The notes under the pieces are model-generated. The model saw only the letters and a list, made by a program, of their open reading frames with translations. It had not been told where the DNA came from and did no database searches. Source: Lingula anatina (lineage: Eukaryota; Animalia; Brachiopoda). From it: 64,000 nt of DNA. Shown here one piece after another: positions 6,001 to 51,391 of this stretch (position 1 is its first letter; every line of letters begins with the position of its first letter). A program made the translations under genes and the position numbers. Location of the stretch: the NCBI GenBank assembly GCA_051362555.1, contig CM120642.1, forward strand, positions 28,582,001-28,646,000, written 5' to 3'.

Positions 6001-9000
6001 AGATGTATTTTTGTGTGTGGTCAACCTTTTAATATCTTTTAATTTATCAACTTGTATAGAAACCCTTTCAGTAAGTTAATTTTCACCCTGCAAAGTTAGT
6101 TTTATTGAAATTAACTGTACAAACAGATTTATCTTTAGAACAAACATCATGTTTTTTGTATGGAAATAAGAAGTAAACCCCATTTTATGTAATATTTTCA
6201 GATAAAGAAGATGCGGGAGGTGCTCCAAGCCTTCTGCGTCCACAATCCTCAGCTAGGGTATTGCCAGGGGATGAATTTCATTGTTGGGATGGCTCTTCTG
6301 TTTATGGAGGCCGAAGATGCTTTCTGGTACGTTTTAAACAGTTCTGGATAGAAAAATGAACTCCGCATAGTTATTGCCGTTTTTATCACCTGTTGCAAAG
6401 GAAACTTCTTTTATATTGTTGTATGTTATTGTTAACATTGACAGAGAAGCATTTTGTGGAGTTTTAACTTCAGTGAAATATTATATAGTGACAATTATCA
6501 TAGCACTTTGCCAGGGTGAACAATACCATTCCTTGTATTTATTACTGTGTGGAGTGTGCAAATGTTTGTTTGGAATTGTAGTCCATGATATACCAGTATG
6601 TGGAAAATTACTATTCTCACTTTGACTAAAATAAAATGGCATAAACTTGAACTCAACATCCTTTCTCAATCCTAGGACCCTGGTGGCCATCACAGAGAAG
6701 TACTTCAGTCCAAACTACTTTGACCACAATTTAGTGGGGGCCCAGGCAGACCAAGAGGTGCTGAAGGAGTTCCTGAGAGAGAAGCTACCCCAACTGTGGC
6801 AACACCTGGAGGAGCTGGACATAGAGATCAGTACTGTGACCCTCAACTGGTTCCTACCTATCTTCTTTGATGCTGTGCCTTTTGAGGTATGGTATTATAA
6901 ACCCATGATTGAAAGCCAAACCCCTACTTCCCTTAAAGTTTTCTTTAAAGAGACAGGGTGCCTTTTGAGGTATGGTTTACAGAATATTGAAAACAAATTC
7001 CCCACTTCCTTTTCCTTTAAAGAGATAGGTGTTGATTTATTTGAGAAAAAAAGTTGTACAAATTGTTTTCACTCTTTTGATATATGCCCCTTTCCTCTTC
7101 AAGACATTTGATCCTTTATTTAAAGGATTTTTAAGTGATAAGGAAGGCGGTGTAGTAGTTTGTGCCTATTGAAGTGACAGTAATATTTTAGAAGTAGCAT
7201 CCAAGTGGCTGGTTTTACAGGAAGTTAATGAAATGAGAAGACTTGTTGTTACTCTGTGAAATATTGGCAGTAAAGACACATTGCCCACATGTGTTCAGAT
7301 CACAGTTATCATTCCCATCAAAAACAATATGCCCACTTTCTATATATACATACATTTTATTTCATAGAAATGTAATAAACGGACGGCAGTTGTCTAGTCA
7401 ATCTTGATACCATTTACTGATATACTTATATATAGTACACCAGTAGCACTTGTTATTTTCACTTTAATTAAAGGATTATGACCTGTGTCATTAGCCCATG
7501 TAAATTATTAGAGGTGTGGTTTACTACATCACAGCTGCTCCAAGGTTACTACTATCTAACTACAAAGTCACTCATGTACAGAAGTATTGGCAAAACTGTG
7601 GCACTTAATTCATTCACACAACAAGTTCTAAGCTACAAGACTTTGACAAAATAAAAAGATGCACATAGTGCATTATGTAATACATTCAAATGAACTCAAC
7701 ATACAGAATATTGGCAAATTTTGTGGCAGTCTATCCTTCACTTCTTTCAGTACAGATCATGGACAAAAATACTCACACGGACAAAATGAAAAATAAAGTT
7801 CTGACACAATACCATTATCAACTAACATCACCAGATATTGAGGACCGTAAGGGTCGGACTTTCATGTTCACTCTTTTCACTTCCATCCACTCATCTCTCT
7901 CGTGATTAAACCACACAATCCCTATGCTATATCTCCCGTTAAGGTTGCTATAGTGACAGTGTTTGTACCACCAGCCAGATGTGTAAAACTTGGCGCAGTG
8001 GGTGCTGCTGGCGTCATTGTCTCTGTCCAGTGAGCTGAACGCCATGTTGTTGGAGTACGAGAGTGAGTCTGATGCATTGCCATGGTAACCTCCAACATGG
8101 AGGGCATATTTGTTACTCTCGTTGTCAACTTTGAAATAGTCATATTGGGCATACCAGTAATTACTATATATATCCCACATTTCTATAAGCAAAGTATAAT
8201 TAGTTTGGGATGTTAAAAAGTGCAAGTTTTCATTTCCAATCCAGAATTCTCCTTGCTCGTCCCCAAACCCTGCCTTGTATTCCTTCCATGGCCGACCAAA
8301 CTCCACAGATCCATCAAGGCGTCTTTGGATGAATGTCCATCCGCCATTTTTGTCCATTTCACAAAATACGCGCAGAGACTCTCGACTCCTCACAGGTTTG
8401 ATGAGGTGAATACCCGTCAGCTGGTTACCATTGTAGTTCTTTTCCTGGCAGTCTAAAAAGACATAAGACATCAAAATTTAGTGGGTATTAATGACTGTTG
8501 AGATGTTTTTACATGGTTTGCATACACATGGTCAAACTGAGTTGTTAGAGATATTAAAACAGAAACACATTCTTTATTGGCATCAAAATCATTAGAATAT
8601 TTTGTCAGAACATTTAATGTACTACATGTATTATTATTATTATTATTATAATTATTTAGTAACTTACCAGTGGGTAAATCCATAACAAAATTATTGACCT
8701 CTTTCTGGACATGTAACAACATAGGAAGCTGACTCGTGATGTTATCTGCTTGGACCACTAATTCATCAATTACAGTGCTCTTCGCAGAGAATTCCTTATA
8801 CACACGCTGCAGGTTGTTCTGAACACGTTTCACATTGTCTTCAACATCTTCTATTTTGTTATTGGTCTCTGAGAGCTCCCTCTCAAGTTCTATCAGTTTT
8901 GACTCCTGCAGCCAATCCCTGTTGGATTTCTGACACGAAATAAGAGATGCGTTGAGGACTTTGACCTCTACGTGAGCGAGGCGATCGTGAATTGAGTTGT

Positions 9001-26200: not shown

Positions 26201-29200
26201 TCTGATCCACTTTCACAGATTTCAGAGATAGCACAGTCAGGTTGTCAAATGTCAGGGCCATTGGGATTATGTGTACATTTTAGAATATTGTTATGTTAAA
26301 TGTTGAATAGTTGGCGAAGGTAAAACACTTATCATACAAGTGTCAAATCCCATTCATGTGTTGCACATAAAAAGTGAGAGGAGAGTGATTTAAAAGCAAT
26401 AAATCCAGGTCAACCAATAACAAAAGCAGGTTGATTAGAAGACATTAAGAAGTCTTGATATTCATATCTCAATTAACTTTACATTTGTTTTCCATGTGGA
26501 TTCCAGGGACCTGAGAACACTACACCAAGTGGGGCACAAAGTGGAGGAACTGTACTACCAGAGGCTGGAGGAACAGAAAAGTAACAGACTCAGTCCTCGC
26601 TGCTCACTGGGTGGTGGAGTTGGTGGGTGATATTTGTGGAAAATTGGGGGGAAAATCTTGATTTTGTAGATAGGAATTATATTGGAACGAATGACTTCAG
26701 ATGTACTAAATGAGGGTCATCTTTCTGACAAAAATGATTGACATTTTAATTGAATAAAAAATGATAGACATTTTAATTGAATGAAAAAATTATATTAAAA
26801 AATTATTATTTCACTATTATGAAGTGATTTCTGGAAAAAATTGATTGTCTTCGTGATCTTTCTGCCATTAAAAGAATATAAATTATTTATTCCAGAAAAC
26901 TCCAGATTTCTCCAGCAGGGGGCGCCAACCAGGCAGGCCATCAGCGACTCTGCACTGGACCAGTCTTCTAGAATGCGAAAGATCTCCCGTGACAGTGGCG
27001 TTACTGTCATCTGGAACAATCCAGCTTTCTGTGACAAAGACATGGAGGAAAACCTCACACCCAAACTGTGCAGCTCAAGTGAAAACAGACTGGAACATTT
27101 CACGTTTGATCTATCAGAGTTTAATGGGCAGAAATTTGATAAGGTCAGAGAAAATGAGGCACCTTATTTATCTGGCTGGAAAAAAATAAAACAAGATGGT
27201 GGAAATGACAATGTCAAAAATAGTAGTAACGAATATTATTCAGATACTGACAGGGTTACTCATCATATCAATGGTGAATGTAAGTTGTCACCAACAACAT
27301 ATAAGAATGACATGTCTCACAGCGGTGTCAGTAAGAGCAAAGAAGACAAAAACAACGACTGTACAAAGTTTGTACATGATGCTTCCAATGGAAGCAGTGT
27401 CAGTAGGCAGCAGAATGGTGCTAATTGCAACAGTGGTGCTAGTGGAGAGGTTGGTACTGAAGAAGGTCAGGCAGCAGGATTCTTGTCTCACAGCCAGAAG
27501 GCAACAAATACATGTGCAAGTGATCAGGAGCTGGAGGAGGTGGAGGGGAGAGTTAGAGATGAACAAGCCGAAGATTTTCAAGGTGAATCAGATTTCAGTT
27601 GTGTAAATTTGGAGAAAGATGCTGAGAGGTTCCAAATGGAGGCATGTGCAATAAAGCAGGAGAGTTGTCATGGGTTGGAAAAAAGTTCATGTAGTACTGC
27701 TGAAGAAGGCATACAGGCAGCTTATCATATGGAGAAAAATGAAGAAAAGCAAGGTGTCATGATTTCAGATTCAGACTTTGACACAGGAAATGAAGAAATA
27801 CATGAAAATCAAATGTTATCTAAACTTGATCATTCCGCCAGGCAATCAATAATAAATGATAACAAAAATCAGGAATCTCAGTCACAAGCTGAAGAGACAC
27901 ACCAACCTTCTCTAAAAGAAATAATTCTTGAAGCCATAAGGCAACATGAGCGGTGTGAGAATCTGCTATGGTCAGAGCACTGTTCTCTTACAACTTCATC
28001 AGTGCCTGTGCATTCTTTTCAAACAGAAGAATCACTGATTAGGAAGCATAGTGATAACCTTGACCATCCAGGTCAAGGTCAAAGCAGTGCTGGTAACAGT
28101 TCAGAAAGCACTGATCCTAATTCATCTGAAACTGTAGTTCCTGCCTTTTATTCTAGGAGTCTTAAAAAGAAAAGCACAGGAGTGGAAGATGTTGTGGATG
28201 TAGTGATCAGTGAAAGTATTGATCTGCATAATGGTTGCTATAGAGATACTGACCCTAAGCCAGATGAGAAGTCAAGGTCAAGTAGTGAAGTGACTGACAT
28301 TGACCTTGATGGGTCAGCACGAAGGTCAAGGACAGACAGTGACCTCACAGACCTCGAAGCTAGGATTGAGTCTCAAAAACTTTTGAAGAAACCCAGTTTA
28401 CAATGGGACCACAATATTGGTGATGAGGAAGGATTCATCAGTATGGAAACTGCAACTGACAATGAGACATCTTTCACAGACTTTGCAACTAAAGAAGAGA
28501 AATTTGACAATGGCCTCATTTTATTTGAGGTTGGCGAGGGAGGAGAAGAGCAAGCAGAAGATAGTTCCAGTGGCGTTATAATCAATGTCGAGGATTTCGA
28601 CAACCTTCCAGTGACTCATAACCACACTTTGACCCATACTTCAAGTTCTCCAGCCATTCTGTCTACAAACTCTATTCTACAGCAAGATGGTGACTCGCCC
28701 CTGGAGAAAAGAGACCTGCCTATCAGCCCCCAGGCTTCCAGGAGGACTGTCAGTTCCAATGGCAGACAAATGGGGATAAACGGCAACATGCTTGGGTGTC
28801 ACTCCAGGCAAATGAGTCTGGACACCAATGCTAGCTCTGTGTTCTGGTCAAGCGAAGAGGAAAGAGGGTCAACTGGTCAGTACTTTAATTAATTTAATGA
28901 GCTTGGGGTCTACAGGGTATCAAAACATATTCAGTTTGGAAGTATTTTATCTTTGCATAATGGTGCAAGATCGACTGTAAGTGCAGTGTATGAAAATTTC
29001 TAACAACTGTCATGGAATGATGACACTACTGTCACTTTTATCTTTAAAATAAGAACTACAATTAGTATATTTAGATTGGGGTAGACACCAATTTGAAAAT
29101 AAGTATAGTTTTTAACTGTGATTAAAACAAAAGCCAGCGGAATAAATAATAACCTGTCAATTATTTTCCCTCGCTAGGCTCACTGAAGGAAGGCGAGGAC

Positions 29201-38396: not shown

Positions 38397-38437
38397 TGTT
38401 ATCTTATTAAAAGAGCAATATATTATTCTGTGATAAT

Positions 38438-38869
38438 AGTATCAGAGTTGAACTTCAGTATCAGTGGAAGAATGAGGGATCAGCAATAACCAACAACAAG
38501 ATTTTCTGTTGCCACTGACTTTATTCTATCTCTCTCCCTGTCCCTCTGTCCCTCTGTGAGGATGCAGGGGATTATATACACAAATATCAAAGACATTCCT
38601 ATGATCAAAGAGATACATTTAAGATAACTGTAAGGGCGACAACATGTCCCTTCAACTTGTGCCCAGCCAGTGTTACGGACCTGTATTTCAAGTTAAATGC
38701 TAAATATTTGTCATGGCAGGTCATTTCTGACCCTGCCCTGTAATTATCAAAATGATGCTGGAGATGTGTGTGGTAGGTCATCTCTGACTCTGTGTGCCAC
38801 GGCAGGTCATTTCTGACCCTGCCCTGTAATTACCAAAATTCACCAAAAATCACTAAATTTAACATGAAA
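38438..38869 (-). repeat. 3' LTR
   Basis: No differences from 47832-48263 seen by eye. Minus-strand TATA-like box at 38572-38578 and AATAAA at 38520-38525. Confidence 0.95.
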
Positions 38870-38871
38870 CA

Positions 38872-38883
38872 TCTTCCTGGCCC
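38872..38883 (-). promoter_or_regulatory. Polypurine tract candidate
   Basis: GGGCCAGGAAGA on the minus strand, immediately before TGTTTCATG at the start of the 3' LTR. Confidence 0.55.
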
Positions 38884-39287
38884 AATAAAATTTGTGCCTC
38901 AAATTTTGTTCACAATGTAATGACAAACAGAAATATTGTCTTATAATAGGACTACCATAATCGTAAGATAAACATGAGTGCAAGCTATTATGCTGGCAAT
39001 TATTATAGCCATAAGCAACAAAGTTTAACATTAGCATGCCTTTTCATAGTAATAATGATAATAATGCTGAAGTCTCCCTATAATAGTCTATGTCTACAAA
39101 TAATTAATGCTATTGAGCATAAAAAGATATTCTTTTAACTACCAGTAAATATGGTACATCTCTTAATTCACTGTAACAATCAAATTTGATTGCCTTAACA
39201 TTACACAGACAGATACAGTATATAATATATAATCCTGTGTTTACACATTTAAGAGATACATGTGTAGCATTGCTTGACAACCTAAAG

Positions 39288-39788
39288 TTATCATTATCCA
39301 TTACATTATCAATACCCTCCACCATCAAATCAACAATTGTTTTGTTTCATATTTGTCAATTAATTATTATAACTTTTTCTATGTGGTTACATAATTTCCA
39401 GAATCAATTCTGATTTTCTCATTAATATCATATTGAAAGTCATTATTTTATTATATCATGATGGAACATTAATATAATTCATGTATACTGTCAGTACACT
39501 CAAATATACATCTTAGAGTTACATGTACATGTATAGTTATATTTCACATCATAAATGTTATCATAATCCATTATATTATCAATACCCTCCACCATCAAAT
39601 CAAAGATTTTTGCTAAATATTGGTCATTGCTACATCAATTAATTATCATAACTTTTTCAATGTGGTTACATAATTTCGATAATCAATACTGATCGTCTCA
39701 TTAATATCAAATTAAAAATTATTTTCTTATATTATGATAGCTCATTAATATAATTCATGTATACTGTCAGTACACGCTCAAGTATACA
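39288..39788. repeat. Diverged ~230-bp direct repeat (2 copies, ~270-bp period) in the element's 3' UTR
   Basis: ATTATCAATACCCTCCACCATCAAATCAA...ATGTGGTTACATAATTTC...CATTAATATAATTCATGTATACTGTCAGTACAC occurs at 39288-39510 and 39558-39788. Confidence 0.85.
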
Positions 39789-39893
39789 ACACAAATCACT
39801 GTGGATCACACATAATCACACTCACACTCCGTAGAAGTGGACTGTTCATTAAATTGTTTTACCCTTTATAGCGTAATAAGGTCAAATTGGTAT

Positions 39894-42232
39894 TCACAGG
39901 AGGTACATTAAACGTTCATGATGCAACACTACAAGATGCGCATCAAATGGCTGATCAATTATTGACATGATAGAAAAATATTGCCACCAGGACAAGGGGA
40001 CACTGGTAGGCAATGGAATGAAGTGGTTCACCTGTCCTTGAGTCACTTTTATTGTTACATCTCCCCATTCAAGCACTAAATTTGGTCTTAATCCCTTTAT
40101 TACTATCAGGTTAGCAATAATTTGATTTCCCATTGCTTTGATATCAAATGGACACTGTTTAAGATGACATAGGTGTATCAACATGCTCTTTTCAGCATTG
40201 TTTATTTCTAGTGCTAGGCCATTTTGCTGGTGCCTACCTTTACACAAAATAATTACTCCCAGAATGATAAAAAGAAGAAGTATTGCTGAAAAGTAAACTG
40301 CAGGAGCAATTTCATGCGTTAAAATTTTATAGATGTCGAATTCAATTTTGGGTGACGGAGATGGTGAGCTATATTGGTAGATAAAATTGGGAGCAGTGTT
40401 TGCCTTGGCATGGGCCATAGTTAACATTGCAGTGCTTAAAACTTTGATTTTATAAGTAAGTGTGGCTGACAGAGCAATTGCTAGGATTGCAACACCCAAA
40501 GCTACATACCCAATTATATCATCCAGAGACAGTCCTCCTGTGGGTAATGTTAAGTCACCAGACAAGAGGGGCTCAGTCAGCGACTGAAATATAGTCTCTC
40601 CCTTTTTTGCTGCTGACATTACTTTTCGCAGATTGAGTTTAATGGAGGAATCCTTGGTTAAAAATTGTGAAAAGTTATGATTGTATAGGCGTAACGTGGG
40701 GATTGTTACTCTGGGGGGTGTTTGAAAGACGGAATGACCAAAAATATCAGAAAAGTTACCTTCATCAAAAAGTTGCTGTAAAAGTGCTAAATTTATGGGA
40801 TGAAGAATTTCAGTAGTTTCATTATGTTCACAAATTCGACGGGGAGGAATATATGTGGAGTCCCCTTCTATAGAGCAGGAACATGGCACCTTCAAAACAC
40901 AAAAATCACAACCAACTTTGGTTACATTGGATGAACACCGCATTGTCAAATTTTGAATTCTGTTAACCAGAACTTGATCTTTCCCAACTGGCGTTAAGGT
41001 GGAGGAGATGCTATTGGGTAGGAGTTGGAAATCGCAGAGGTCTTTGATGCTGGTTTTATCATTTAGTAGAAGGGCCTTTAAGCAATGAGGTTTCTTGGAT
41101 ACCTTAGTATTTTCCAGTGCACAAAACATGGGGTTTTGTCCAGTGCAAGATTTCAGAAAATCATAGTTCAGGCTAATGTGGTGGTTCCCAAAACTGGCAA
41201 AGTATTCAGGAACATTGTGGAGGAGGGTGGCATGTTTACTTGTCGCATTGAGGGGAACTGGTACTGCTTTAACATGAAACACTGTAAATAAATCGTGGGA
41301 TGCTATGGGAATTTTGATGGTGATTGCTATTGACTGATTTAAGTTATGTGTGGCAATTTTGCCATAACGGTAGTAATACTGCAAATTTTGGTTGATAAGT
41401 AGTCCTGGAAATTGTTTTTGAAGAGAAGCCTTAATTTTCTTTAAAGTGCTGCTTAGCATATGAGGGGGAAATAGAATTGGTGAAAGCTTTCCATGGGAGA
41501 CATCATTCATACCTATCATTGTATTTTCGATTTCAAAGGTGAGCTTGTTAGTTATGGTACTTACATGCATTAACTTTGTAAATAACCCAAGTGTAAAATC
41601 TATTTCATTCTCAATATACTTTAAATCACCTCCTAACATTATGTTTAACTGGTGATTGTCTTCTATCTGTTTAACCATGTTCATCATGCGTTCATTTTGC
41701 CCACTTACAATTGACCCATATTGAGAACTAAATTTGGAAAAGGATGTCAGGGCTTTTTGCTGCCTTGATTGCAATGCATTGATGTGATCAATCACCTTAT
41801 TAAGTTGGTCTTCCGTTGCCACTCCAAAGAGACTATTCGCCACCTTACCTACAAATGGAAGTGCTGATCTTTTTTGTCTATTTTCCTCAACATCATCATT
41901 GGTAAATATTTCACTTACTCTATGCCGAAGTGCTCTCAATTCACTTCTTGTTTGACTATACAACTTTCTACCTTCATCTACTGCTCTTTCGATTAATTTA
42001 CATGTTTTCTTATTTAAACGCCCATCGCAATTATACTCTAAGTTAGGCTCCATCGGAACTTCTGGCAAGTACACAAACATCGTGTGTAGCCAATAGTCGT
42101 TTACCACTGCCATCGTCCCTTCATTTCTAAAGAAAACACCGTAGTTTATCCGATTTTCAGCACTGGTAAGGGGCAGAATTGCCACAGCCATCCAGATGAC
42201 AAGCCATAGACTTATGCAATCGTATTGGGGTC
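39894..42232 (-). CDS. env: Envelope fusion glycoprotein (baculovirus-F/errantivirus class I type), probably from a spliced mRNA
   Basis: 765-aa ORF from Met 42191; the frame stays open back to a splice acceptor at 42232. Hydrophobic signal CISLWLVIWMAVAILPLTSA, furin site RQKR followed by fusion peptide SALPFVGKVANSLFGVATEDQL, heptad repeat, Cys-rich region, N-glycosylation sequons, two TM segments. Confidence 0.9.
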
Positions 42233-42445
42233 CTGAGGAGAAAAATGAGATTTTAAGAAGTGGCCTTTACCTATCTTACTTATAGAACCGGCTACAAGAA
42301 GATTGCGCATTAGGTACAAAACCAAAGATCAGAAAGGAGTAGGAGAACAGGACTGTACAATAAAAAGGCATAAGGACTAAGCGCTAGACATTTTAGAAAG
42401 ACTGCCAATTCTATACTGAGGAGTTGCATTACATCTGATCACAAT

Positions 42446-45400
42446 CTATTGACGAGTCACCAGTTTACGCTTTTTCTTCTTTCCTTTCTTCGTCTTATTA
42501 GCGTGGAATTCCTGAATTAGCAAATCTGGCACTTTATCAGCCCTAACCCAAGTCGATGTTTTTATACCTTTCCACTTTATTCTATATAGCTTTTCTCCTT
42601 TGTACCATTCATAACATAATATTTTCTCTACCTCTTTTTCCTGTGGGTTATCTATCTCAACTTCACATGGGACAGGAGTGTCAGGTACATTAGCATCAAA
42701 TTGTGCTTCTGGTTGGATATTTTCAGTATCATTGATCGGACCATTAACTGGAACATTTTGTGGAGTGATGTCATCAAACTTTGTTCTGATAATGGGGTCT
42801 TTGTATGGTTTAAGTCTATTGGCATTAACAGGGGCCTTCACAAGTTTGTTGGTGATACACTCTCTCAATTGGTATGTGGCATTGCCAAGCACTCTCACTA
42901 TATAGAAAGGCCCTATAAATTTTGGAACGAGTTTGGATGTCAAACCTTTTGGGGTTCTTTCATTTCTTAATAAAACTTTGTCCATTTCGGCATATTTTGG
43001 ATTTGTAGCATTTCGGTTATGATATTTGGCATTTTGCCACTGAGATTCCAGTTTTATTTTTGCTGCCACCTGTCTACCCTTGTTTAGAGAATCTAATCTG
43101 TCTGATACATATTTTGCCACATTATGGGGTAGGTCCCTCTTGGGTAGTAATTCAACATCTAAAGGTGTGGTCATTTCCTTTCCAAAAAGAATGAAAAATG
43201 GACTATAACCCGTCCCTTCTGTGGGAGAACTTCTATAGGCCATTAACACTGATTCTAAATGATCTGCCCAATCTGACTGATCTTCTCGACATAGGGCACG
43301 CAGTGATTGCCATATAAAACTGTTGAACCGTTCACACGTGGCATTTGTTTGGGGATGATACGATGCTGTGTAGTGTCTTTCTACATCAAAAATGTCACAA
43401 ATGGCTTGTACTAACTTTGATCTAAAATTTTGGCCTCTGTCTGTAATAATTTCAGAAGGCGCACCAAATCTTGTAAAAATATGTTTGTATAAGACATTTG
43501 CTATTTCAGTAGCCTCTTGTGATTTAAGGGCAAATGCCTCTGGCCAACGTGAAAAAGATTCGACAGCTAGCAAGATATACTTGTGTCCGGACTTTGTTGG
43601 TGTGATTGGACCTAGTATATCCAAATGCCATGTGCTGAAAACATCTTTTATGGGAAGGGGCTGTAGTAACGACTTTGTATTGTGATAACCTCTTTTGACC
43701 TTCTGACAAACACTGCAGGACTTGACATAACGTTTAATGTCCCTTGACATTTTTGGCCAGTAATATTTTAACCTGATTTTTTCTAGGCATCTCCTAAAAC
43801 CTGGATGGCAAGCGCCTGCTCTGGCATCATGGTACGCTTTCAATACCTTAGCCCTGTATTGTTTTGGCACTGCTAACTGCTCTATCAAGTTTTCATCACC
43901 TGCCTTTTGTTTTCTTCTATTTATGTGTTGCCTATACAGGATACCGTTCCTAATCAGGAAAAATTGTTTCAGGTTCTTCTTTTCTGATTGTACACTAGTA
44001 GGACTTTGGAGGAGTCTGATGATTGGAGCTAGGTCAGGGGAAGCGCTTTGATTTTGAGCCAAGTCAGTTAGTTCTACCTTATCTGGCCATTTTGTTAGTG
44101 GTGTTTTATTGACACTTGCAACTACTACTGGAGGATTTGGTCTGCAGTAATTGAATTTGATGGTATGAAGTTTCTTGTCAATTTTTGATGGGGGTGTCAG
44201 GGTATACGTGCCCTTAGCATCATCTATCATGTTGACTTTAGGTTGTGTTAGAGCTATGTCATCGTCTGCTTCATCAGTTTGTCTTGATAAACAGTCTACG
44301 GGGTTCGTGCTACCTTTCTTGTAATAAATTGAAAACTGTAAGTCTTGAATTTCAAGTGCCCACCTATTCAATTTCTGGTTTCCACTTTGTTTTGATTGCA
44401 ACCACTCCAGAGGTTTATGGTCAGTAAAGATTGAGAAATGATTGGGTTGAAGGTAAACTCGGTATTCCTTAATTCCCTCAATTAAAGCCAAACATTCTTT
44501 TTCTGTAACATTGTAATTTCTTTCTGCAGGACGCAGTGTTCTAGAACCATAAGAGATAGCATGTTCCCTTCCATCTTTGTCAACTTGACTAAGCATATAA
44601 CCTATCGCAAAGTCTGAGGCATCAGTCGTTAGTTTGAATTCTCTGTTCATGTCGGGGAATGCCAAGATAGGGGCTGTCGCTAAGGTGTTTTTTAGCTTGT
44701 CAAATGACTGTTGGCACGTGTCTGTCCAACTAAATGGTTTATCCTTTCGTGTTAATGCATTCAAGGGGGCTGCAATTTTAGCATAATTTTTGACAAAACG
44801 ACGATAGTAATTACACATACCCAAAAAGCTTTTCACTTGTGTGCGAGTTTTCGGTCTCAAAACTTTTTTGACTGCCTCTACTTTTGACATATCTACTGAA
44901 ATGCCATCTTTTGAGATGAAATGACCTAAAAAGGCTATTCGTTTAGTAGCAAATTTGCATTTTTTTGTTTTCACTTTGAGATTGGTTTCTTGTAACCGTT
45001 TGAAAACTAATTCCAAATGTTGGAGATGTTCCTCAAAATTTTTTGAAAAGATCAAAATGTCATCAATGTAACACAACACCATTTTCCAATTTAAATCTTT
45101 TAGCACACGGGCCATTGTGTTTTGGTAGTGCGCCGACGCGTTACGAAGGCCAAACGCAAGTCTTTTAAACTGAAAATGACCATGGTGGGTCACAAAAGCT
45201 GTTTTATGTCTGGTAGTCTCTTCTAAGGGAAGTTGCCAAAAGCCCGAGAATAAATCTAAAGAACTGTACACCCTGGCATTAGAGTCAGCAAGTATGTCGA
45301 GTACGTCAGTCAGTCGAGGCAAGGGAAAGTGGATGGGCGTGGTCACTTTATTTAAACGTCTATAGTCTATAGCAAAACGCATAGATCCGTCTTTTTTGCG

Positions 45401-46534
45401 AACCAAAACCACTGGGCTTGCCCACTCACTATTTGACTCCTCAATGATATCATTTCTAAGCATCTCATCTGTTTGTCTTTCTATCTCAGTCTTTTGGTCA
45501 GTTGTCTGTCTATAATGTCTTTGTCTTTGGGGCGGGGCGTTACCTGTCTCTATCACATGTCCTTTCACTTTTGCCTCTCCCATTTCTGATAAATCTGATG
45601 CAAATATATCCCTGTATTTCCCTATTAATATTAATAGTTCACCTTTCTGTTCTTCTGTCAGGTCAGTTTCATCTAAAGATAAGCCCGTTTCTTTAGCTAA
45701 CTTCAGGAAATGTGAGTTATCTATGGACTCTGCCTCTGTTGTCCCAATAAAGTGTTCCCGTTTTAAGCATGAGCTAATGTTAGCTGGACCCTCCTCACCC
45801 ATGGGTAGAATACAGTTTGTCTCTACAGGGTATGCTTTGGCCAAGACAGTGTCATTTGGAATGGTTATTGATTTGTCAGTGGGATTGTATATTCTGCACA
45901 TGCTCCGATTCTTATCTATAACACACCTAGCCACCAAATAGTGGTTATCGACAGGATCTAACAGTAGACTTTTAGCATTGGTCTTATTTGCTCCAGATAT
46001 TTTTACAGGTATTAAGCTTTCAGTTCTGGGACCAACAGTTATTTTGTGATTGGTACGCACCAGGCCTACATAATTTGGTTTATTTGTGTGACAGAACTTC
46101 TTATCATTAAATGACAGGATGCTATTTTTCATGTCAAAGGTAGCTCCATTTGTCTTTAGGAAATCAATGCCCAAAATAACATTTCTTGGAAGGTTTTGCA
46201 AAATGTAAAATTTATGAGTGAAGGAGTTTTTGCCTATGACAAAGTCAATTAAAGCACAACCAATAATTTTATGGGATTCTCCGCCTACTCCTGAGATTGT
46301 TAACAGGTCTGATTTTAAAAACTTAACTGTTGATTGCTTTTCATGTTTTAGTTCTCTCATGATGTTATCCGAAATGCAAGATATTGATGCACCTGTGTCA
46401 ATCATGGCCTTAACTGTCAGGGTATTAAAATGGATTTTAATCAAATTGTGTTCTATAGGGTCCCCTCCCATGACATTCCCTAGAAAACAACTCTCCTGTA
46501 AATTTTTCAATTTTTCCTTATTACGCAGACACCC
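42446..46534 (-). CDS. pol: Pol polyprotein: aspartic protease, RT, RNase H, integrase, C-terminal chromodomain
   Basis: MIDTGAS (PR), RFAIDYRRLN and CYIDD (RT), TTDASDFAIG (RNase H), HDARAGACH...CSVCQ (IN zinc finger), WHLDILGP/IITDRG/CERFN (DDE), IGPF, EVEKIL...YRIKWKG...TW (chromo). The frame is open from the codon directly after the gag UAG. Confidence 0.97.
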   Translation of the reverse strand, partial: GCLRNKEKLKNLQESCFLGNVMGGDPIEHNLIKIHFNTLTVKAMIDTGASISCISDNIMRELKHEKQSTVKFLKSDLLTISGVGGESHKIIGCALIDFVIGKNSFTHKFYILQNLPRNVILGIDFLKTNGATFDMKNSILSFNDKKFCHTNKPNYVGLVRTNHKITVGPRTESLIPVKISGANKTNAKSLLLDPVDNHYLVARCVIDKNRSMCRIYNPTDKSITIPNDTVLAKAYPVETNCILPMGEEGPANISSCLKREHFIGTTEAESIDNSHFLKLAKETGLSLDETDLTEEQKGELLILIGKYRDIFASDLSEMGEAKVKGHVIETGNAPPQRQRHYRQTTDQKTEIERQTDEMLRNDIIEESNSEWASPVVLVRKKDGSMRFAIDYRRLNKVTTPIHFPLPRLTDVLDILADSNARVYSSLDLFSGFWQLPLEETTRHKTAFVTHHGHFQFKRLAFGLRNASAHYQNTMARVLKDLNWKMVLCYIDDILIFSKNFEEHLQHLELVFKRLQETNLKVKTKKCKFATKRIAFLGHFISKDGISVDMSKVEAVKKVLRPKTRTQVKSFLGMCNYYRRFVKNYAKIAAPLNALTRKDKPFSWTDTCQQSFDKLKNTLATAPILAFPDMNREFKLTTDASDFAIGYMLSQVDKDGREHAISYGSRTLRPAERNYNVTEKECLALIEGIKEYRVYLQPNHFSIFTDHKPLEWLQSKQSGNQKLNRWALEIQDLQFSIYYKKGSTNPVDCLSRQTDEADDDIALTQPKVNMIDDAKGTYTLTPPSKIDKKLHTIKFNYCRPNPPVVVASVNKTPLTKWPDKVELTDLAQNQSASPDLAPIIRLLQSPTSVQSEKKNLKQFFLIRNGILYRQHINRRKQKAGDENLIEQLAVPKQYRAKVLKAYHDARAGACHPGFRRCLEKIRLKYYWPKMSRDIKRYVKSCSVCQKVKRGYHNTKSLLQPLPIKDVFSTWHLDILGPITPTKSGHKYILLAVESFSRWPEAFALKSQEATEIANVLYKHIFTRFGAPSEIITDRGQNFRSKLVQAICDIFDVERHYTASYHPQTNATCERFNSFIWQSLRALCREDQSDWADHLESVLMAYRSSPTEGTGYSPFFILFGKEMTTPLDVELLPKRDLPHNVAKYVSDRLDSLNKGRQVAAKIKLESQWQNAKYHNRNATNPKYAEMDKVLLRNERTPKGLTSKLVPKFIGPFYIVRVLGNATYQLRECITNKLVKAPVNANRLKPYKDPIIRTKFDDITPQNVPVNGPINDTENIQPEAQFDANVPDTPVPCEVEIDNPQEKEVEKILCYEWYKGEKLYRIKWKGIKTSTWVRADKVPDLLIQEFHANKTKKGKKKKRKLVTRQ

Positions 46535-47719
46535 CTATTGTTTTATGGTTCTGCAAACCACAGCCAAATGACCAATACGCTCACAGTTGTAGCATTTCAT
46601 GTTACGGGCAAAACAATTTAATTCCGTATGAAAAGTCCACTTACCACAACGTGAACACTTCCTCTCCTTTTCCTCTCTTCTCTCCTTCCTCCATTCACCC
46701 CTTCTTTCTGCACTCCTTTCACGCATCCTCTCCTTGCTGCTATCTCTAGATCGATCTGCTGGCTGGAATGATACTTTTCTGTTACTTCTCTCTGTTGAGA
46801 CTACCTGTACACTGGGCCCTTCCAAAACTCTATTTATCAATTGTGTTATTTGGCCCATCATGTTTTCTTGCATTGTGACAAATTTGTTAAGTATTAAATG
46901 ATTGTTGTCATGCTCTTTCAGGTCTGTAGACAGGGGTGCCACGGTAAGATCTGGAGACACATTAGTGGTAGCAGTTTCAGCCAAAATAGCTGCTTCTTCT
47001 AATTGTCTCAAATTTTGAGGGTTCTGCATGGTTACAGCTGCCCTTATTGTAGGTTTAAGGCCATTAATGATGGCTGCCAAAATGTGTTGCTCAGGCAATT
47101 TTACCTGATGTCCCATTTTCATCATTTTAGAAATGAAGTCTCTTACCTTTTCTTCGTCCTGTCTACTGGAAAATATAGATGCAGTCATGGATCTGATTTT
47201 GCTTGGACTAGGTCCATATCTTTCTAAAAATGACATTTTTACTCTTTGATAACTAGTTTTGTTCTGCAAACTTAGGTACCATGTTTTGGCATTTCCTTGT
47301 AATAAATAACTAAAATGCGAAAGTCTCATATTGTCATTGTATTGCATAATATCACAATATTGATCAAATTGATAAACCCAATCTGATGCACAGTCCCCAT
47401 CCTCTCCCCTAAAAGGGAAGGGAGATAGATGTTGTGGCATCGTGATTACCACTGGAATCCCTTGATTTTTCTGAGCTGCCACTGGACTCCCTTGATTTTG
47501 TTGAGCTGCACTGGGGGGCATAGGTGGCGGTGGTGGTGGTGGTGGTGGCATCTCTATCATTGCTTGGGACTGCTCCTGTTGCTGCCCTGGGGATCTTATC
47601 AGAGAGTTGGTCTGCTGGGCTTGTTGTTGTCTCTCAATCTGGTCCAGAGGCTGCAGCTCCTGTTGTTGCTGAGGACCAGGCTCATGTTGCTCTGAGGGTA
47701 CGTTGTGGTTGTTGCCCAT
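46535..47719 (-). CDS. gag: Gag (Q/P-rich N-terminus, capsid, two zinc knuckles)
   Basis: 394-aa ORF: retrotransposon capsid (FRGEDG..DWVYQF...LLQGNAKTWY...RQDEEKVRDF...IINGLKP), CSRCGKWTFHTELNC and CYNCERIGHLAVVC knuckles. Confidence 0.93.
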   Translation of the reverse strand: MGNNHNVPSEQHEPGPQQQQELQPLDQIERQQQAQQTNSLIRSPGQQQEQSQAMIEMPPPPPPPPPMPPSAAQQNQGSPVAAQKNQGIPVVITMPQHLSPFPFRGEDGDCASDWVYQFDQYCDIMQYNDNMRLSHFSYLLQGNAKTWYLSLQNKTSYQRVKMSFLERYGPSPSKIRSMTASIFSSRQDEEKVRDFISKMMKMGHQVKLPEQHILAAIINGLKPTIRAAVTMQNPQNLRQLEEAAILAETATTNVSPDLTVAPLSTDLKEHDNNHLILNKFVTMQENMMGQITQLINRVLEGPSVQVVSTERSNRKVSFQPADRSRDSSKERMRERSAERRGEWRKERREEKERKCSRCGKWTFHTELNCFARNMKCYNCERIGHLAVVCRTIKQ

Positions 47720-47824
47720 CTAATTCAGGGGTATGCTGACTCGAAGCCTGCTGTTCTGTTGCTGCTTGCTGCTGGTTGGAAGTTCTGGGGGATGCCCGTC
47801 TCATTTTTGTTGCCCTTATGGTTA

Positions 47825-47832
47825 CTCCACCA
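47825..47832 (-). promoter_or_regulatory. Primer-binding site (TGGTGGAG, tRNA-Ala-like)
   Basis: Directly abuts the 5' LTR and shares its last T. Complementary to the ...CUCCACCA 3' end of eukaryotic tRNA-Ala, but only 8 nt are recognisable. Confidence 0.6.
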
Positions 47833-48263
47833 GTATCAGAGTTGAACTTCAGTATCAGTGGAAGAATGAGGGATCAGCAATAACCAACAACAAGATTTTC
47901 TGTTGCCACTGACTTTATTCTATCTCTCTCCCTGTCCCTCTGTCCCTCTGTGAGGATGCAGGGGATTATATACACAAATATCAAAGACATTCCTATGATC
48001 AAAGAGATACATTTAAGATAACTGTAAGGGCGACAACATGTCCCTTCAACTTGTGCCCAGCCAGTGTTACGGACCTGTATTTCAAGTTAAATGCTAAATA
48101 TTTGTCATGGCAGGTCATTTCTGACCCTGCCCTGTAATTATCAAAATGATGCTGGAGATGTGTGTGGTAGGTCATCTCTGACTCTGTGTGCCACGGCAGG
48201 TCATTTCTGACCCTGCCCTGTAATTACCAAAATTCACCAAAAATCACTAAATTTAACATGAAA
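47832..48263 (-). repeat. 5' LTR
   Basis: Direct repeat of 38438-38869, followed on the minus strand by PBS and gag. Confidence 0.95.
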
Positions 48264-48320
48264 ATATAATCAGAAGTATGATTATAATTGTGCTTAAGTA
48301 TATTTTGCTTACATGTTTGT

Positions 48321-49650: not shown

Positions 49651-51391
49651 ATGGTTCACAGAAATCTGCTGTATGGCTTGGCTGGTGCACTGGTGCTGAT
49701 GGCGCTCTTGATAATGGTAAGTTCTGGCTGGTGGAATGAGAATCATCCTTTCCTTTTCAGATCACTTTTGATTCTTGTGCAATGTTTGATGATTTTATGG
49801 GTAAGTTTGACTGAAGATGATGTTGAGTTCTTTCGAGATAATACCACACCACATTTTGGCTGTTTATTTGACTGGTGATAAGGTGTTTTTGGTGATGGAT
49901 ATATTGGAAGGTCTTTCATTCAGGTGTTACTTTGCAGGAAGTTAGAAGAAGTCAGATCTGTGTATTGTTACAACAGTTGGCTGTGTGATTTGTATGCAAA
50001 TTTGGGTTGTAGAGGCTTACAAAGTTTCTTATGAATTATGAATTTGATTATAAACTGTATTTGGATCAAGTGGATCTTTTGTTACCTTTAACGATGCACA
50101 GATTAGATAAATTTTAAAATGGAATTATGTTCACATTTTTTATCCTTGAGCTTAAATATTTTATATTTTAAGTGATGGTCACAACATTTCTGGCTTATTT
50201 GAAAGTTTTCTTCTAGTGAACTGAAGATGGGATAGTTGTCACTTAAGTGACATGGTGACGTTTTGAAATGAGCTCAGATATATGTTTGTTTAGAAATCCA
50301 GTAATTTGAAAAAAAGCAGTGATTTTGTACTTTTTCAAAATTGTTCAATTACTAAACATATCATAGTATTCTAAGTGTTCAAAATAGTTGTAATACTCAT
50401 GTTCTTTCAGCTGCCAAAGAAGTTTGAAATGCTGAAGACAAATGGTGAACCAAACCATTTACCAGAACCAGCCAGTAAAAATAACCAGCATCAGACAGAG
50501 GTCTCAAGGGATCATCTGCATTTGGCACCATCTATTGACAACCCCCTGTCTCCTCCTTGTGGGGAAGTCTGTGATTTTTCCATCCACAAAAGCAAAGGAA
50601 TGTCTTTTGTCAAGAAGAATTTTAATTGTCGTAACATATTTCTGAGACTTAAATACCCTCCTGGAAAAGTGTATAAACCACCTCTACGAGAGCCACCTAC
50701 AGAGCTTTTGGATGCGTTCACACAAAATGGAGACATGGCACTGGGATCTTTTTACATGGATGGCACAACGGCTTCTAAGGGCTCCGTGTTCAAGATAGAG
50801 GACATGAACAAATTAATCAAAGACGATAAAGAGCTAAAAATGATTGGAAGTTACGGAAAAGAGAGTGCAAAGTTTAAGAATGGTCTCAGCAAATACAAAT
50901 CTGAACTGACGGGCAAGTCTGGGATAGTGATTGGGAGTATTCGTCCTTGGATAGAAGTAATGCTCATAAACATGGGTGTCAAGCATGTGACAACAGTAGA
51001 TTATAATTCTGTCATATTTGAGCATCCTCAGATATCGTTTAAACTGATGCCAGACTTGGCAGACGAAAGTATAAAAAATCAGCCACCCCAGTTTGATTTT
51101 GCTGCATCATTTTCTTCCTTAGAACACTCAGGACTTGGTCGCTATGGCGACCCTATTAATCCATATGGTGATTTTGAAGCTGCAGCGCAAATATGGTGCA
51201 TGCTTAAGCCTGGTGGGTTATTTTTTCTTGGTGTTCCTGCTTCATTTGGAAAGAGAAAAGGGACGCTGGAGTATAATGCACATCGTATCTACGGTGAAGC
51301 TCGTATCGAGCAACTCACGGCAAACTTTGAGGAAATTTATAGGTTTCATACTGGTATTCACGGTGTATTTGTGTTGAGAAAGCGAGTGTGA
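49651..51391 (+). CDS. DUF268 family protein (class I SAM-methyltransferase-like fold), type II membrane anchor, ~348 aa
   Basis: Exon 49651-49716 (MVHRNLLYGLAGALVLMALLIM|gtaagt) joined in phase 0 to 50411-51391. Motifs VIGSIRPWIE, FDFAASFSSLEHSGLGRYGDPINPYGD, LKPGGLFFLGVP, NAHRIYG. Confidence 0.85.

What the first reader, a model, noticed from the sequence alone, without database searches (positions are those of the whole stretch)
46440..46545. gag and pol are in the same frame separated by one UAG: stop-codon readthrough rather than frameshifting
Seen (minus strand): ...ATA AAA CAA TAG GGG TGT CTG CGT AAT AAG GAA AAA TTG AAA... The pol frame is open from the codon right after the gag stop (46537-46535), and the ORF finder's start at 46510 is a TTG 8 codons later. 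Known: UAG-G readthrough is the gamma/epsilon-retrovirus strategy, and CAA before the stop favours leakiness; most Ty3/Gypsy elements use frameshifts or a fused ORF. Inference: programmed readthrough, possibly with a 3' RNA stimulator that I could not fold with confidence.
Basis: partly seen in the sequence, partly recalled or inferred. Interest (0 to 1): 0.75.

Follow-up and report, generated by a model that had tools for sequence, protein, structure and literature searches.

The report
Errantivirus clade with gag-stop-pol junction
A freshly inserted, envelope-carrying jumping gene of an animal has one stop codon between its coat gene and its enzyme gene, and its distant relatives keep an in-frame stop at the same place, so ribosomes likely read through it now and then, a trick known from mouse leukaemia virus but not found described for this group.

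Summary
Observation confirmed. The TAG (46537-46535) ends gag of a full-length Ty3/gypsy gag-pol-env element with identical LTRs, an F-type env and a weak chromodomain hit; pol continues in frame for 1362 codons. Near-identical contigs from two other samples keep the TAG. Of 9 clade relatives held as DNA (RT-RH 49-54% identical where measured), 6 have one in-frame stop after the zinc knuckles (4 UAG-G, 2 UGA-C), 2 lack the junction and 1 has no gag beside pol. Outside the clade 8 of 96 classified loci do. Spacers differ only by whole codons, no AUG is conserved, and synonymous bases behind the UAG are kept. Three relatives fold a covarying hairpin after an 8-nt spacer, as in murine leukaemia virus. 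The window's own 3' RNA folds no better than shuffles, so a stimulator is unsupported here. Programmed readthrough is likely (0.85) but not measured; fused and frameshifting relatives exist, and all six relatives come from two assemblies. The strategy is known (gammaretroviruses, fission-yeast Tj1); I found no report for env-carrying invertebrate gypsy elements. The scan noted similar junctions in copia, DIRS-like and Euglena elements, none like this sequence.

The parts
47832..48265 (-). 5' LTR
   Evidence: 432 nt exactly identical to 38438-38869; the first two bases differ from the 3' LTR
48266..48270 (-). 5-bp target-site duplication ATTAT, left copy
   Evidence: read; contigs of runs X5 and X9 join the two flanks
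47815..47832 (-). Primer-binding-site-like stretch starting TGG right after the 5' LTR
   Evidence: sequence; the tRNA was not identified
46538..47719 (-). gag ORF, 394 aa from the first in-frame ATG of this copy; capsid domain and two zinc-knuckle-like motifs
   Evidence: the 5' part differs from other copies by a frame-changing length difference near 47,700
46535..46537 (-). gag terminator UAG, in frame with pol; likely readthrough site
46523..46534 (-). Conserved 12-nt 3' context GGG TGT CTG CGT (G+1, U+4, G+9, C+10, U+12 invariant in 5 of 5 UAG elements; GGG in 4 of 5)
46490..46529 (-). Place of the hairpin found in relatives L161, L162, L164; only a weak -3 kcal/mol helix here
42446..46534 (-). 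pol ORF, 1362 aa: PR, RT, RNase H, integrase, C-terminal chromodomain-like region
   Evidence: Chromo E 6e-5, 23.3 bits, below the curated cut-off of 25.1
39894..42266 (-). env ORF (790 codons stop to stop), F-type fusion protein; acceptor-like site near 42233
   Evidence: Baculo_F E 1e-9; acceptor read, not tested
38872..38883 (-). Polypurine-tract-like stretch before the 3' LTR
   Evidence: sequence
38438..38871 (-). 3' LTR
38433..38437 (-). Target-site duplication ATTAT, right copy

Best explanation
The UAG is the inherited end of gag in a recently inserted env-carrying Ty3/gypsy element, and Pol is likely made as a Gag-Pol fusion when a small share of ribosomes read through it. Shown: layout, conservation of an in-frame stop across the clade, leaky stop contexts, conserved synonymous bases, a covarying hairpin in three relatives. 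Inferred: most ribosomes stop and make Gag; a near-cognate tRNA decodes the UAG in a few percent; the protease then cuts the fusion. The signal is likely UAG-GGG-U..G-C.U, helped in some families by a stem that starts after 8 nt. In this family the stem looks decayed, so the linear context or a structure I could not find would carry the signal.
For: 1) Same species: X4 record 15 (2 differences) and X5 record 22 (3 differences) span the junction, and depth sums place all their differences at 46337, 46478 and 46661, none in the stop. 2) The family moved recently with the stop in place: LTRs identical over 432 nt, flanks joined in X5 and X9. 3) Of 9 other DNA loci in the window's RT clade, 6 have gag-stop-pol in one frame (L161, L162, L164, L165 UAG-G; L170, L242 UGA-C); L163 and L255 lack the junction and L081 has no gag beside pol. 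They are 49-54% identical to the window in RT-RH. Outside the clade 8 of 96 classified loci have an in-frame stop. 4) 7 of 7 junction stops are UAG-G or UGA-C, against 1 of 10 true pol/env terminators in the same clade. 5) Stop-to-Asp spacers are 45-71 codons, stop-free in frame, with 1-9 stops in each other frame; base shuffles are stop-free in 5-26% each. 6) No shared AUG: Met lies 24, 58, 14, 23, 40 or 19/15 residues before the Asp, and L242 has none. 7) Rare synonymous choices are kept: GGG in 4 of 4 Gly codons (background 0.07-0.37) and G at +9 in 5 of 5 over four amino acids (0.05-0.33). 8) L161, L162, L164 fold at z -2.2, -3.8, -3.0; their consensus stem starts at +9, with 13 pairs of which 4 have double changes. 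9) No slippery heptamer within 60 nt of any of the 7 stops, while the -1 sister loci L276 and L275 each have one.
Against: No readthrough product or ribosome data exist here. The window's own 3' RNA has no supported structure, and in the four-way alignment it breaks 5 of 9 pairs. L165, L170 and L242 show no significant fold either. All six relatives come from two MAG assemblies, so few hosts are sampled and the cases are related by descent; the Fisher P of 1e-5 overstates the support. The clade is mixed: P0044 and its cluster are truly fused, 4 of 150 close proteins carry knuckles fused to PR, and L081 starts pol with no gag beside it. The letters at the stop were not displayed for X1 record 6 or for the ~90% subfamily contigs (419 rows hidden). 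A strong-context ATG lies at +64, 24 residues before the Asp, behind an acceptor-like TTTTCTAG/G at +55 (sequence). In Tca2 the junction alone gave no readthrough (PMC2194720, abstract).
Confidence: 0.85

Rival explanations
1. Pol is made apart from Gag: from a spliced RNA that uses the acceptor-like site at +55, or by reinitiation or internal initiation at the ATG at +64.
For: An ATG in good context (GTC ATG G) lies 24 residues before the catalytic Asp, early enough for the whole protease. It is unchanged in reads of a diverged relative that match +53..+110 at 51 of 58 bases (table 3). The L081/P0013 subclade seems to start pol at its own ATG. Tca2 has a promoter in its junction (PMC2194720, abstract).
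Against: The AUG position is not shared and L242 has none. Acceptor-like sites passed my filter in only 2 of 7 spacers, in different phases, and the window's site did not pass. This route gives no reason for the kept frame, the UAG-G/UGA-C contexts or the hairpin. No joint was listed in 4 RNA runs, but cover was only 6-33 reads each.
Confidence: 0.09
2. The UAG is a nonsense mutation in a single gag-pol ORF of this copy or subfamily, with Pol supplied by a fused partner.
For: Fused relatives exist in the clade (P0044 cluster). This copy has another lesion in the 5' part of gag. Contigs drop rare variants.
Against: The TAG is kept in two other samples. Six relatives at about 50% RT identity stop at the same place with shared context. 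No protein above 40% identity over the PR-RT start, fused or not, was among 4634 candidates. Pol is open for 1362 codons behind the stop.
Confidence: 0.02
3. The stop is bypassed by another recoding event (hopping, double frameshift, RNA editing of the UAG, or a host that reads UAG as sense).
For: The window lacks a classical stimulator, and non-canonical bypass was proposed for Tca2 (PMC2194720, abstract).
Against: No slippery site. Pol of the same element also ends in TAG, which speaks against a recoded host. Two relatives use UGA instead. Editing could not be tested: at most 3 RNA reads, of a diverged relative, cover the stop.
Confidence: 0.04

Closest known systems
Gammaretrovirus (Moloney MuLV) gag-pol readthrough, Type III signal
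   Same: UAG followed by G, between the zinc knuckle and the protease DTG motif; in three relatives a stem begins after an 8-nt spacer (PMC13517186 and PMC3159437, passages).
   Different: The element carries Ty3/gypsy-type domains and an F-type env. The structure in relatives is a hairpin with no pseudoknot shown, and the window has no supported structure.
Fission-yeast Ty3/gypsy Tj1, Tcry1, Tosmo1-3
   Same: Ty3/gypsy with one in-frame stop between gag and pol; the stop is needed for Tj1 transposition (PMC4600332 and bioRxiv 2022.12.06.519325, passages).
   Different: Those use GAA-TGA-CT, have no env and are fungal. Here the context is UAG-GGG-U (or UGA-C in two relatives), with env, in an animal.
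Env-carrying chromodomain errantiviruses of Cnidaria, Mollusca and Annelida (Chary and Hayashi, PMC13524379)
   Same: gag-pol-env order, F-type env, C-terminal chromodomain-like region, LTRs, multi-copy.
   Different: The main text has no hit for read-through, frameshift, in-frame, fused, translation or recoding, so the junction is not described there.
Plant-virus UAG-GGR readthrough sites (Tombusviridae; rice stripe necrosis virus UAG-GGG-UAC)
   Same: UAG-GGG-UAC occurs letter for letter in L162 and L164; the window has UAG-GGG-UGU (PMC3159437, passages).
   Different: Unrelated RNA viruses, so the likeness is convergent. No long-range partner of +1..+22 was found in the element (35 of 40 shuffles did as well).
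Candida albicans Tca2 (Ty1/copia, gag-UGA-pol)
   Same: In-frame stop between gag and pol; Pol made from the full RNA (PMC2194720, abstract).
   Different: Copia, UGA; its junction alone did not direct readthrough, a warning for this case.

Membership tests
Ty3/gypsy env-carrying errantivirus | Two LTRs, target-site duplication, PBS- and PPT-like sites | tested here: met
Ty3/gypsy env-carrying errantivirus | Pol order PR-RT-RH-IN with gypsy-type domains | tested here: met
   (gag-asp_proteas, RVT_1, RT_RNaseH, Integrase_H2C2, rve)
Ty3/gypsy env-carrying errantivirus | Third ORF encoding an F-type or gB-type fusogen | tested here: met
   Baculo_F E 1e-9 in the window; also in L162, L163, L165
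Chromodomain errantivirus clade of Cnidaria/Mollusca/Annelida (PMC13524379) | Chromodomain after integrase | tested here: inconclusive
   Chromo E 6e-5, 23.3 bits, below the cut-off of 25.1; several close proteins carry PF00385
Chromodomain errantivirus clade of Cnidaria/Mollusca/Annelida (PMC13524379) | Placement in that clade of the published RT tree | not testable with these tools
   the supplements list coordinates and names, not sequences
Type III (gammaretrovirus-like) readthrough signal | UAG followed by G, in frame between the nucleocapsid knuckle and the protease | tested here: met
Type III (gammaretrovirus-like) readthrough signal | Stable 3' structure after an 8-nt spacer, in the window's element | tested here: not met
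   z +1.9 and +0.23; breaks 5 of 9 consensus pairs
Type III (gammaretrovirus-like) readthrough signal | Stable 3' structure after an 8-nt spacer, in relatives | tested here: inconclusive
   hairpin in 3 of 6 relatives, 4 of 13 pairs with double changes; only three sequences; no pseudoknot tool was run
Type III (gammaretrovirus-like) readthrough signal | Measured readthrough giving a Gag-Pol fusion | not testable with these tools
   needs a reporter, ribosome profiling or proteomics
Tj1/Tosmo in-frame-stop elements | GAA-TGA-CT junction | tested here: not met
   window CAA-TAG-GG; relatives differ too
-1 frameshifting Ty3/gypsy | Overlapping gag and pol with a slippery heptamer | tested here: not met
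   same frame, no heptamer in 7 of 7; present in sister loci L275 and L276

The most novel reading that the evidence does not exclude
A whole old clade of env-carrying invertebrate Ty3/gypsy elements has independently arrived at the gammaretrovirus solution (UAG-GGG, 8-nt spacer, stem) and switches between UAG-G, UGA-C, fusion and -1 frameshifting; this family has lost the stem and reads through on the linear signal UAG-GGG-U..G-C.U alone, a structure-free Type III signal.
Probability: 0.3. Interest if true: 0.62.

Novelty: new member of a known kind. Interest (0 to 1): 0.45.

Why it matters
It would add a natural, deeply diverged series of gag-pol readthrough signals from animals outside Retroviridae, with and without a 3' stem and with two different stop codons. 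That series makes it testable how much of UAG-G readthrough rests on the linear context and how much on structure. It also shows that gammaretrovirus-like layout (gag-UAG-pol plus env) is no marker of retroviral descent, and that annotation should not call such copies defective.

Tried and rejected
No genome is held for the window, so copies could not be counted directly. Viral contigs gave no relative with the single protein and only distant ones with the alignment. A search of 301 genomes of the MAG's family found matches in 4 and no new junction. The Gag search found 1 protein at 24%. No RNA holder was listed. Four RNA runs gave 6-33 reads each; only 3 reads, from a diverged relative, cover the stop bin, and the pile at +53..+110 has its first mate on the minus strand, so it is likely antisense; these data say nothing on splicing or editing. 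The window's minimum-energy hairpin at +37..+97 was rejected: z about -0.7, and the other copies carry a change at 46478 that breaks one of its G-C pairs. A long-range partner of +1..+22 was rejected. CAA as a conserved 5' signal was rejected. My automatic junction classifier left 79 of 182 DNA rows unclassified and called L258 +1, which proved -1 by hand; the outside counts were not all checked by hand. The inner tree is weakly resolved: the 63-tip clade has support 0.73, the 67-tip clade with the -1 sister loci 0.999, and IQ-TREE on 55 thinned rows reshuffles the inside, so no order of events is claimed. The Atlas gave no answer for Env. Gao 2003 and Harrell 2002 were not held; Gao 2003 may list animal gypsy elements with such a stop. 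Nine paper searches showed no report of this junction in env-carrying invertebrate gypsy elements.

Full report
OBSERVATION. The minus strand carries the quoted sequence, with TAG at 46537-46535. Gag (47719-46535, 394 aa) and pol (46534-42446, 1362 aa) are adjacent in one frame, and a third ORF (42266-39894) follows. Pfam gives Retrotrans_gag and a zinc knuckle for the first; PR, RT, RNase H, integrase and a weak chromodomain for the second; and Baculo_F for the third. The LTRs are identical over 432 nt and flanked by ATTAT, and contigs of runs X5 and X9 join the two flanks. This is a recently inserted, polymorphic, env-carrying Ty3/gypsy element. The host is an animal by inference (fibrinogen-domain gene, F-type env); I did not determine it further.

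IS THE STOP A LESION? No genome was held, so I laid contigs of 4 runs on the element. X4 record 15 and X5 record 22 (two samples of one study) span the junction with 2 and 3 differences. Depth sums assign all of these to 46337, 46478 and 46661, so both keep the TAG. For X1 record 6 only 4 of 10 differences were shown, and for a ~90% subfamily the letters at the stop were hidden, so these remain open. Contigs drop rare variants.

RELATIVES. A Pol alignment fetched 239 loci, and 49 more came from the two MAGs holding the closest ones and their family. After removing duplicates, viral loci L007-L080 and rows without a good RT, 182 DNA rows (the window included) and 55 proteins entered an RT-RH tree. 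The window's 63-tip clade holds 9 other DNA loci. Six have gag, one stop and pol in one frame, 6-16 codons after the last knuckle Cys: L161, L162 and L164 with TAG GGG TRC GYG CCT, L165 with TAG GAT TTT TCG CCT, L170 with TGA CAG and L242 with TGA CGC. L161 and L170 begin inside the knuckle region, so only the end of gag is seen. L163 and L255 start inside pol, and L081 has no gag beside pol. The six are 49-54% identical to the window in RT-RH; L162, L163 and L165 lie next to an F-type env. Outside the clade, 96 rows were classified automatically: 51 as -1, 32 fused, 5 as +1 and 8 in-frame stop; 76 stayed unclassified. The nearest sister loci L275 and L276 are -1 with slippery heptamers. Limits: all six relatives come from two assemblies (host contigs filed in bacterial MAGs), the clade support is 0.73, and fused forms exist inside or near the clade (P0044 cluster; 4 of 150 close proteins have knuckles fused to PR, 5 more have long N-termini).

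SIGNS OF TRANSLATION ACROSS THE STOP. All 7 junction stops are UAG-G or UGA-C, the Type III and Type II contexts of PMC3159437 (passages), against 1 of 10 true terminators in the clade. The stop-to-Asp spacer varies from 45 to 71 codons, always by whole codons and without an in-frame stop, while the other frames hold 1-9 stops; shuffled spacers are stop-free in 5-26% of cases each. No AUG is shared, and L242 has none before the protease. Behind the UAG, G+1, U+4, G+9, C+10 and U+12 are invariant in 5 of 5. The first Gly codon is GGG in 4 of 4, where the elements' own usage is 0.07-0.37, and +9 is G over four different amino acids. This is conservation at the RNA level.

STRUCTURE. L161, L162 and L164 fold a hairpin at z -2.2, -3.8 and -3.0. 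For L162 and L164 it beats all 14 background windows in pol. The consensus stem starts at +9, with 13 pairs of which 4 show double changes, the same 8-nt spacing as in Moloney MuLV (PMC13517186, passages). Three sequences are few, and no pseudoknot tool was run. The window has only a -3 kcal/mol helix in that register, folds worse than shuffles, breaks 5 of 9 consensus pairs and shows no other local or long-range structure. L165, L170 and L242 show nothing significant.

MECHANISM. Shown: the layout and its conservation. Inferred: most ribosomes end at the UAG and make Gag, and a few percent insert an amino acid and make Gag-Pol, which sets the Gag:Pol ratio (0.85). The main rival is a separately made Pol, from the acceptor-like site at +55 or the ATG at +64 (0.09); these features are not shared by the relatives, and the RNA reads were too few to test them. 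A nonsense mutation is very unlikely (0.02), and other recoding is unlikely (0.04).

KNOWN SYSTEMS. It works like gammaretroviral gag-pol readthrough and like the fission-yeast gypsy elements Tj1, Tcry1 and Tosmo1-3 (bioRxiv 2022.12.06.519325 and PMC4600332, passages), but it matches neither fully: the domains are gypsy-type, the context differs from GAA-TGA-CT, and this copy lacks the stem. By features it fits the F-env chromodomain errantiviruses of PMC13524379 (abstract, sections 14 and 22, passages, parts of supplements 1 and 4), whose main text does not treat the gag-pol junction. UAG-GGG-UAC is also the site of rice stripe necrosis virus. PMC5009743 (passages) reports 28 of 51 animal elements as -1 and 2 as +1 in a 2003 survey; that survey itself was not held and may list in-frame stops in animals. 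PMC2194720 (abstract) warns that the Tca2 junction alone gave no readthrough. PMC4402516 (passages) had nothing on this point. Nine searches found no report for this group; subscription journals and Repbase were not searchable. The scan's notes list similar junctions in copia, DIRS-like and Euglena elements (unchecked) and nothing like this sequence.

VERDICT. A real, conserved gag-stop-pol junction that likely works by programmed readthrough. The strategy is known; the carrier clade and the series of signals with and without a stem appear undescribed. Novelty: new member of a known kind. Interest 0.45.

Noticed in passing
window near 47,700 and 47804: Near-identical contigs of X1, X4 and X5 all differ from this copy by a frame-changing length difference in the 5' part of gag. 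The first ATG after the PBS (47804) opens only a short ORF in this copy, so its gag 5' end may be broken or mis-assembled.
   Followed up: partly
window 38433-48270: Contigs of X5 and X9 join the two flanks, so the insertion is polymorphic; the LTR ends are unusual (no terminal CA; first two bases differ between the LTRs).
   Followed up: partly
L091:4443, L196:1569, L104:2272, L126:3723, L202:1500: Gypsy loci outside this clade also have a long ORF, one in-frame stop and pol, with textbook contexts TGA-CTAG (L091, L196) or TAG-G (L104, L126, L202).
   Followed up: no
L081:289-5403; proteins P0013, P0016, P0022, P0036: A subclade whose long Pol starts at its own ATG with a conserved W-x-C-x3-C motif; in L081 no gag lies in the 288 bases before it. 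Possibly a different way of expressing Pol.
   Followed up: no
P0044 cluster; P0149, P0157, P0200: Truly fused Gag-Pol forms among close relatives; several full-length members in the P0044 cluster.
   Followed up: partly
window 46425-46482: In runs X10 and X11, 14 and 10 reads of a diverged relative match only this stretch (51 of 58 bases), likely as antisense RNA; it may mark a conserved RNA-level element at +53..+110.
   Followed up: partly
L162:1349: A second in-frame TGA inside gag, 79 codons before the junction stop; likely a lesion of that copy.
   Followed up: no
L161-L170, L173-L174 and many more: Two bacterial MAGs hold many eukaryotic LTR-element contigs (126 and 17 matches), i.e. 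host contamination of reference genomes.
   Followed up: no
window 39284-39775: Direct repeats about 270-279 nt apart in the long stretch between env and the 3' LTR.
   Followed up: no
window 7818-8477, 50375-51391, 26823-28892: Host ORFs: a fibrinogen C domain, a DUF268 protein, and a 689-codon ORF with no Pfam hit.
   Followed up: no
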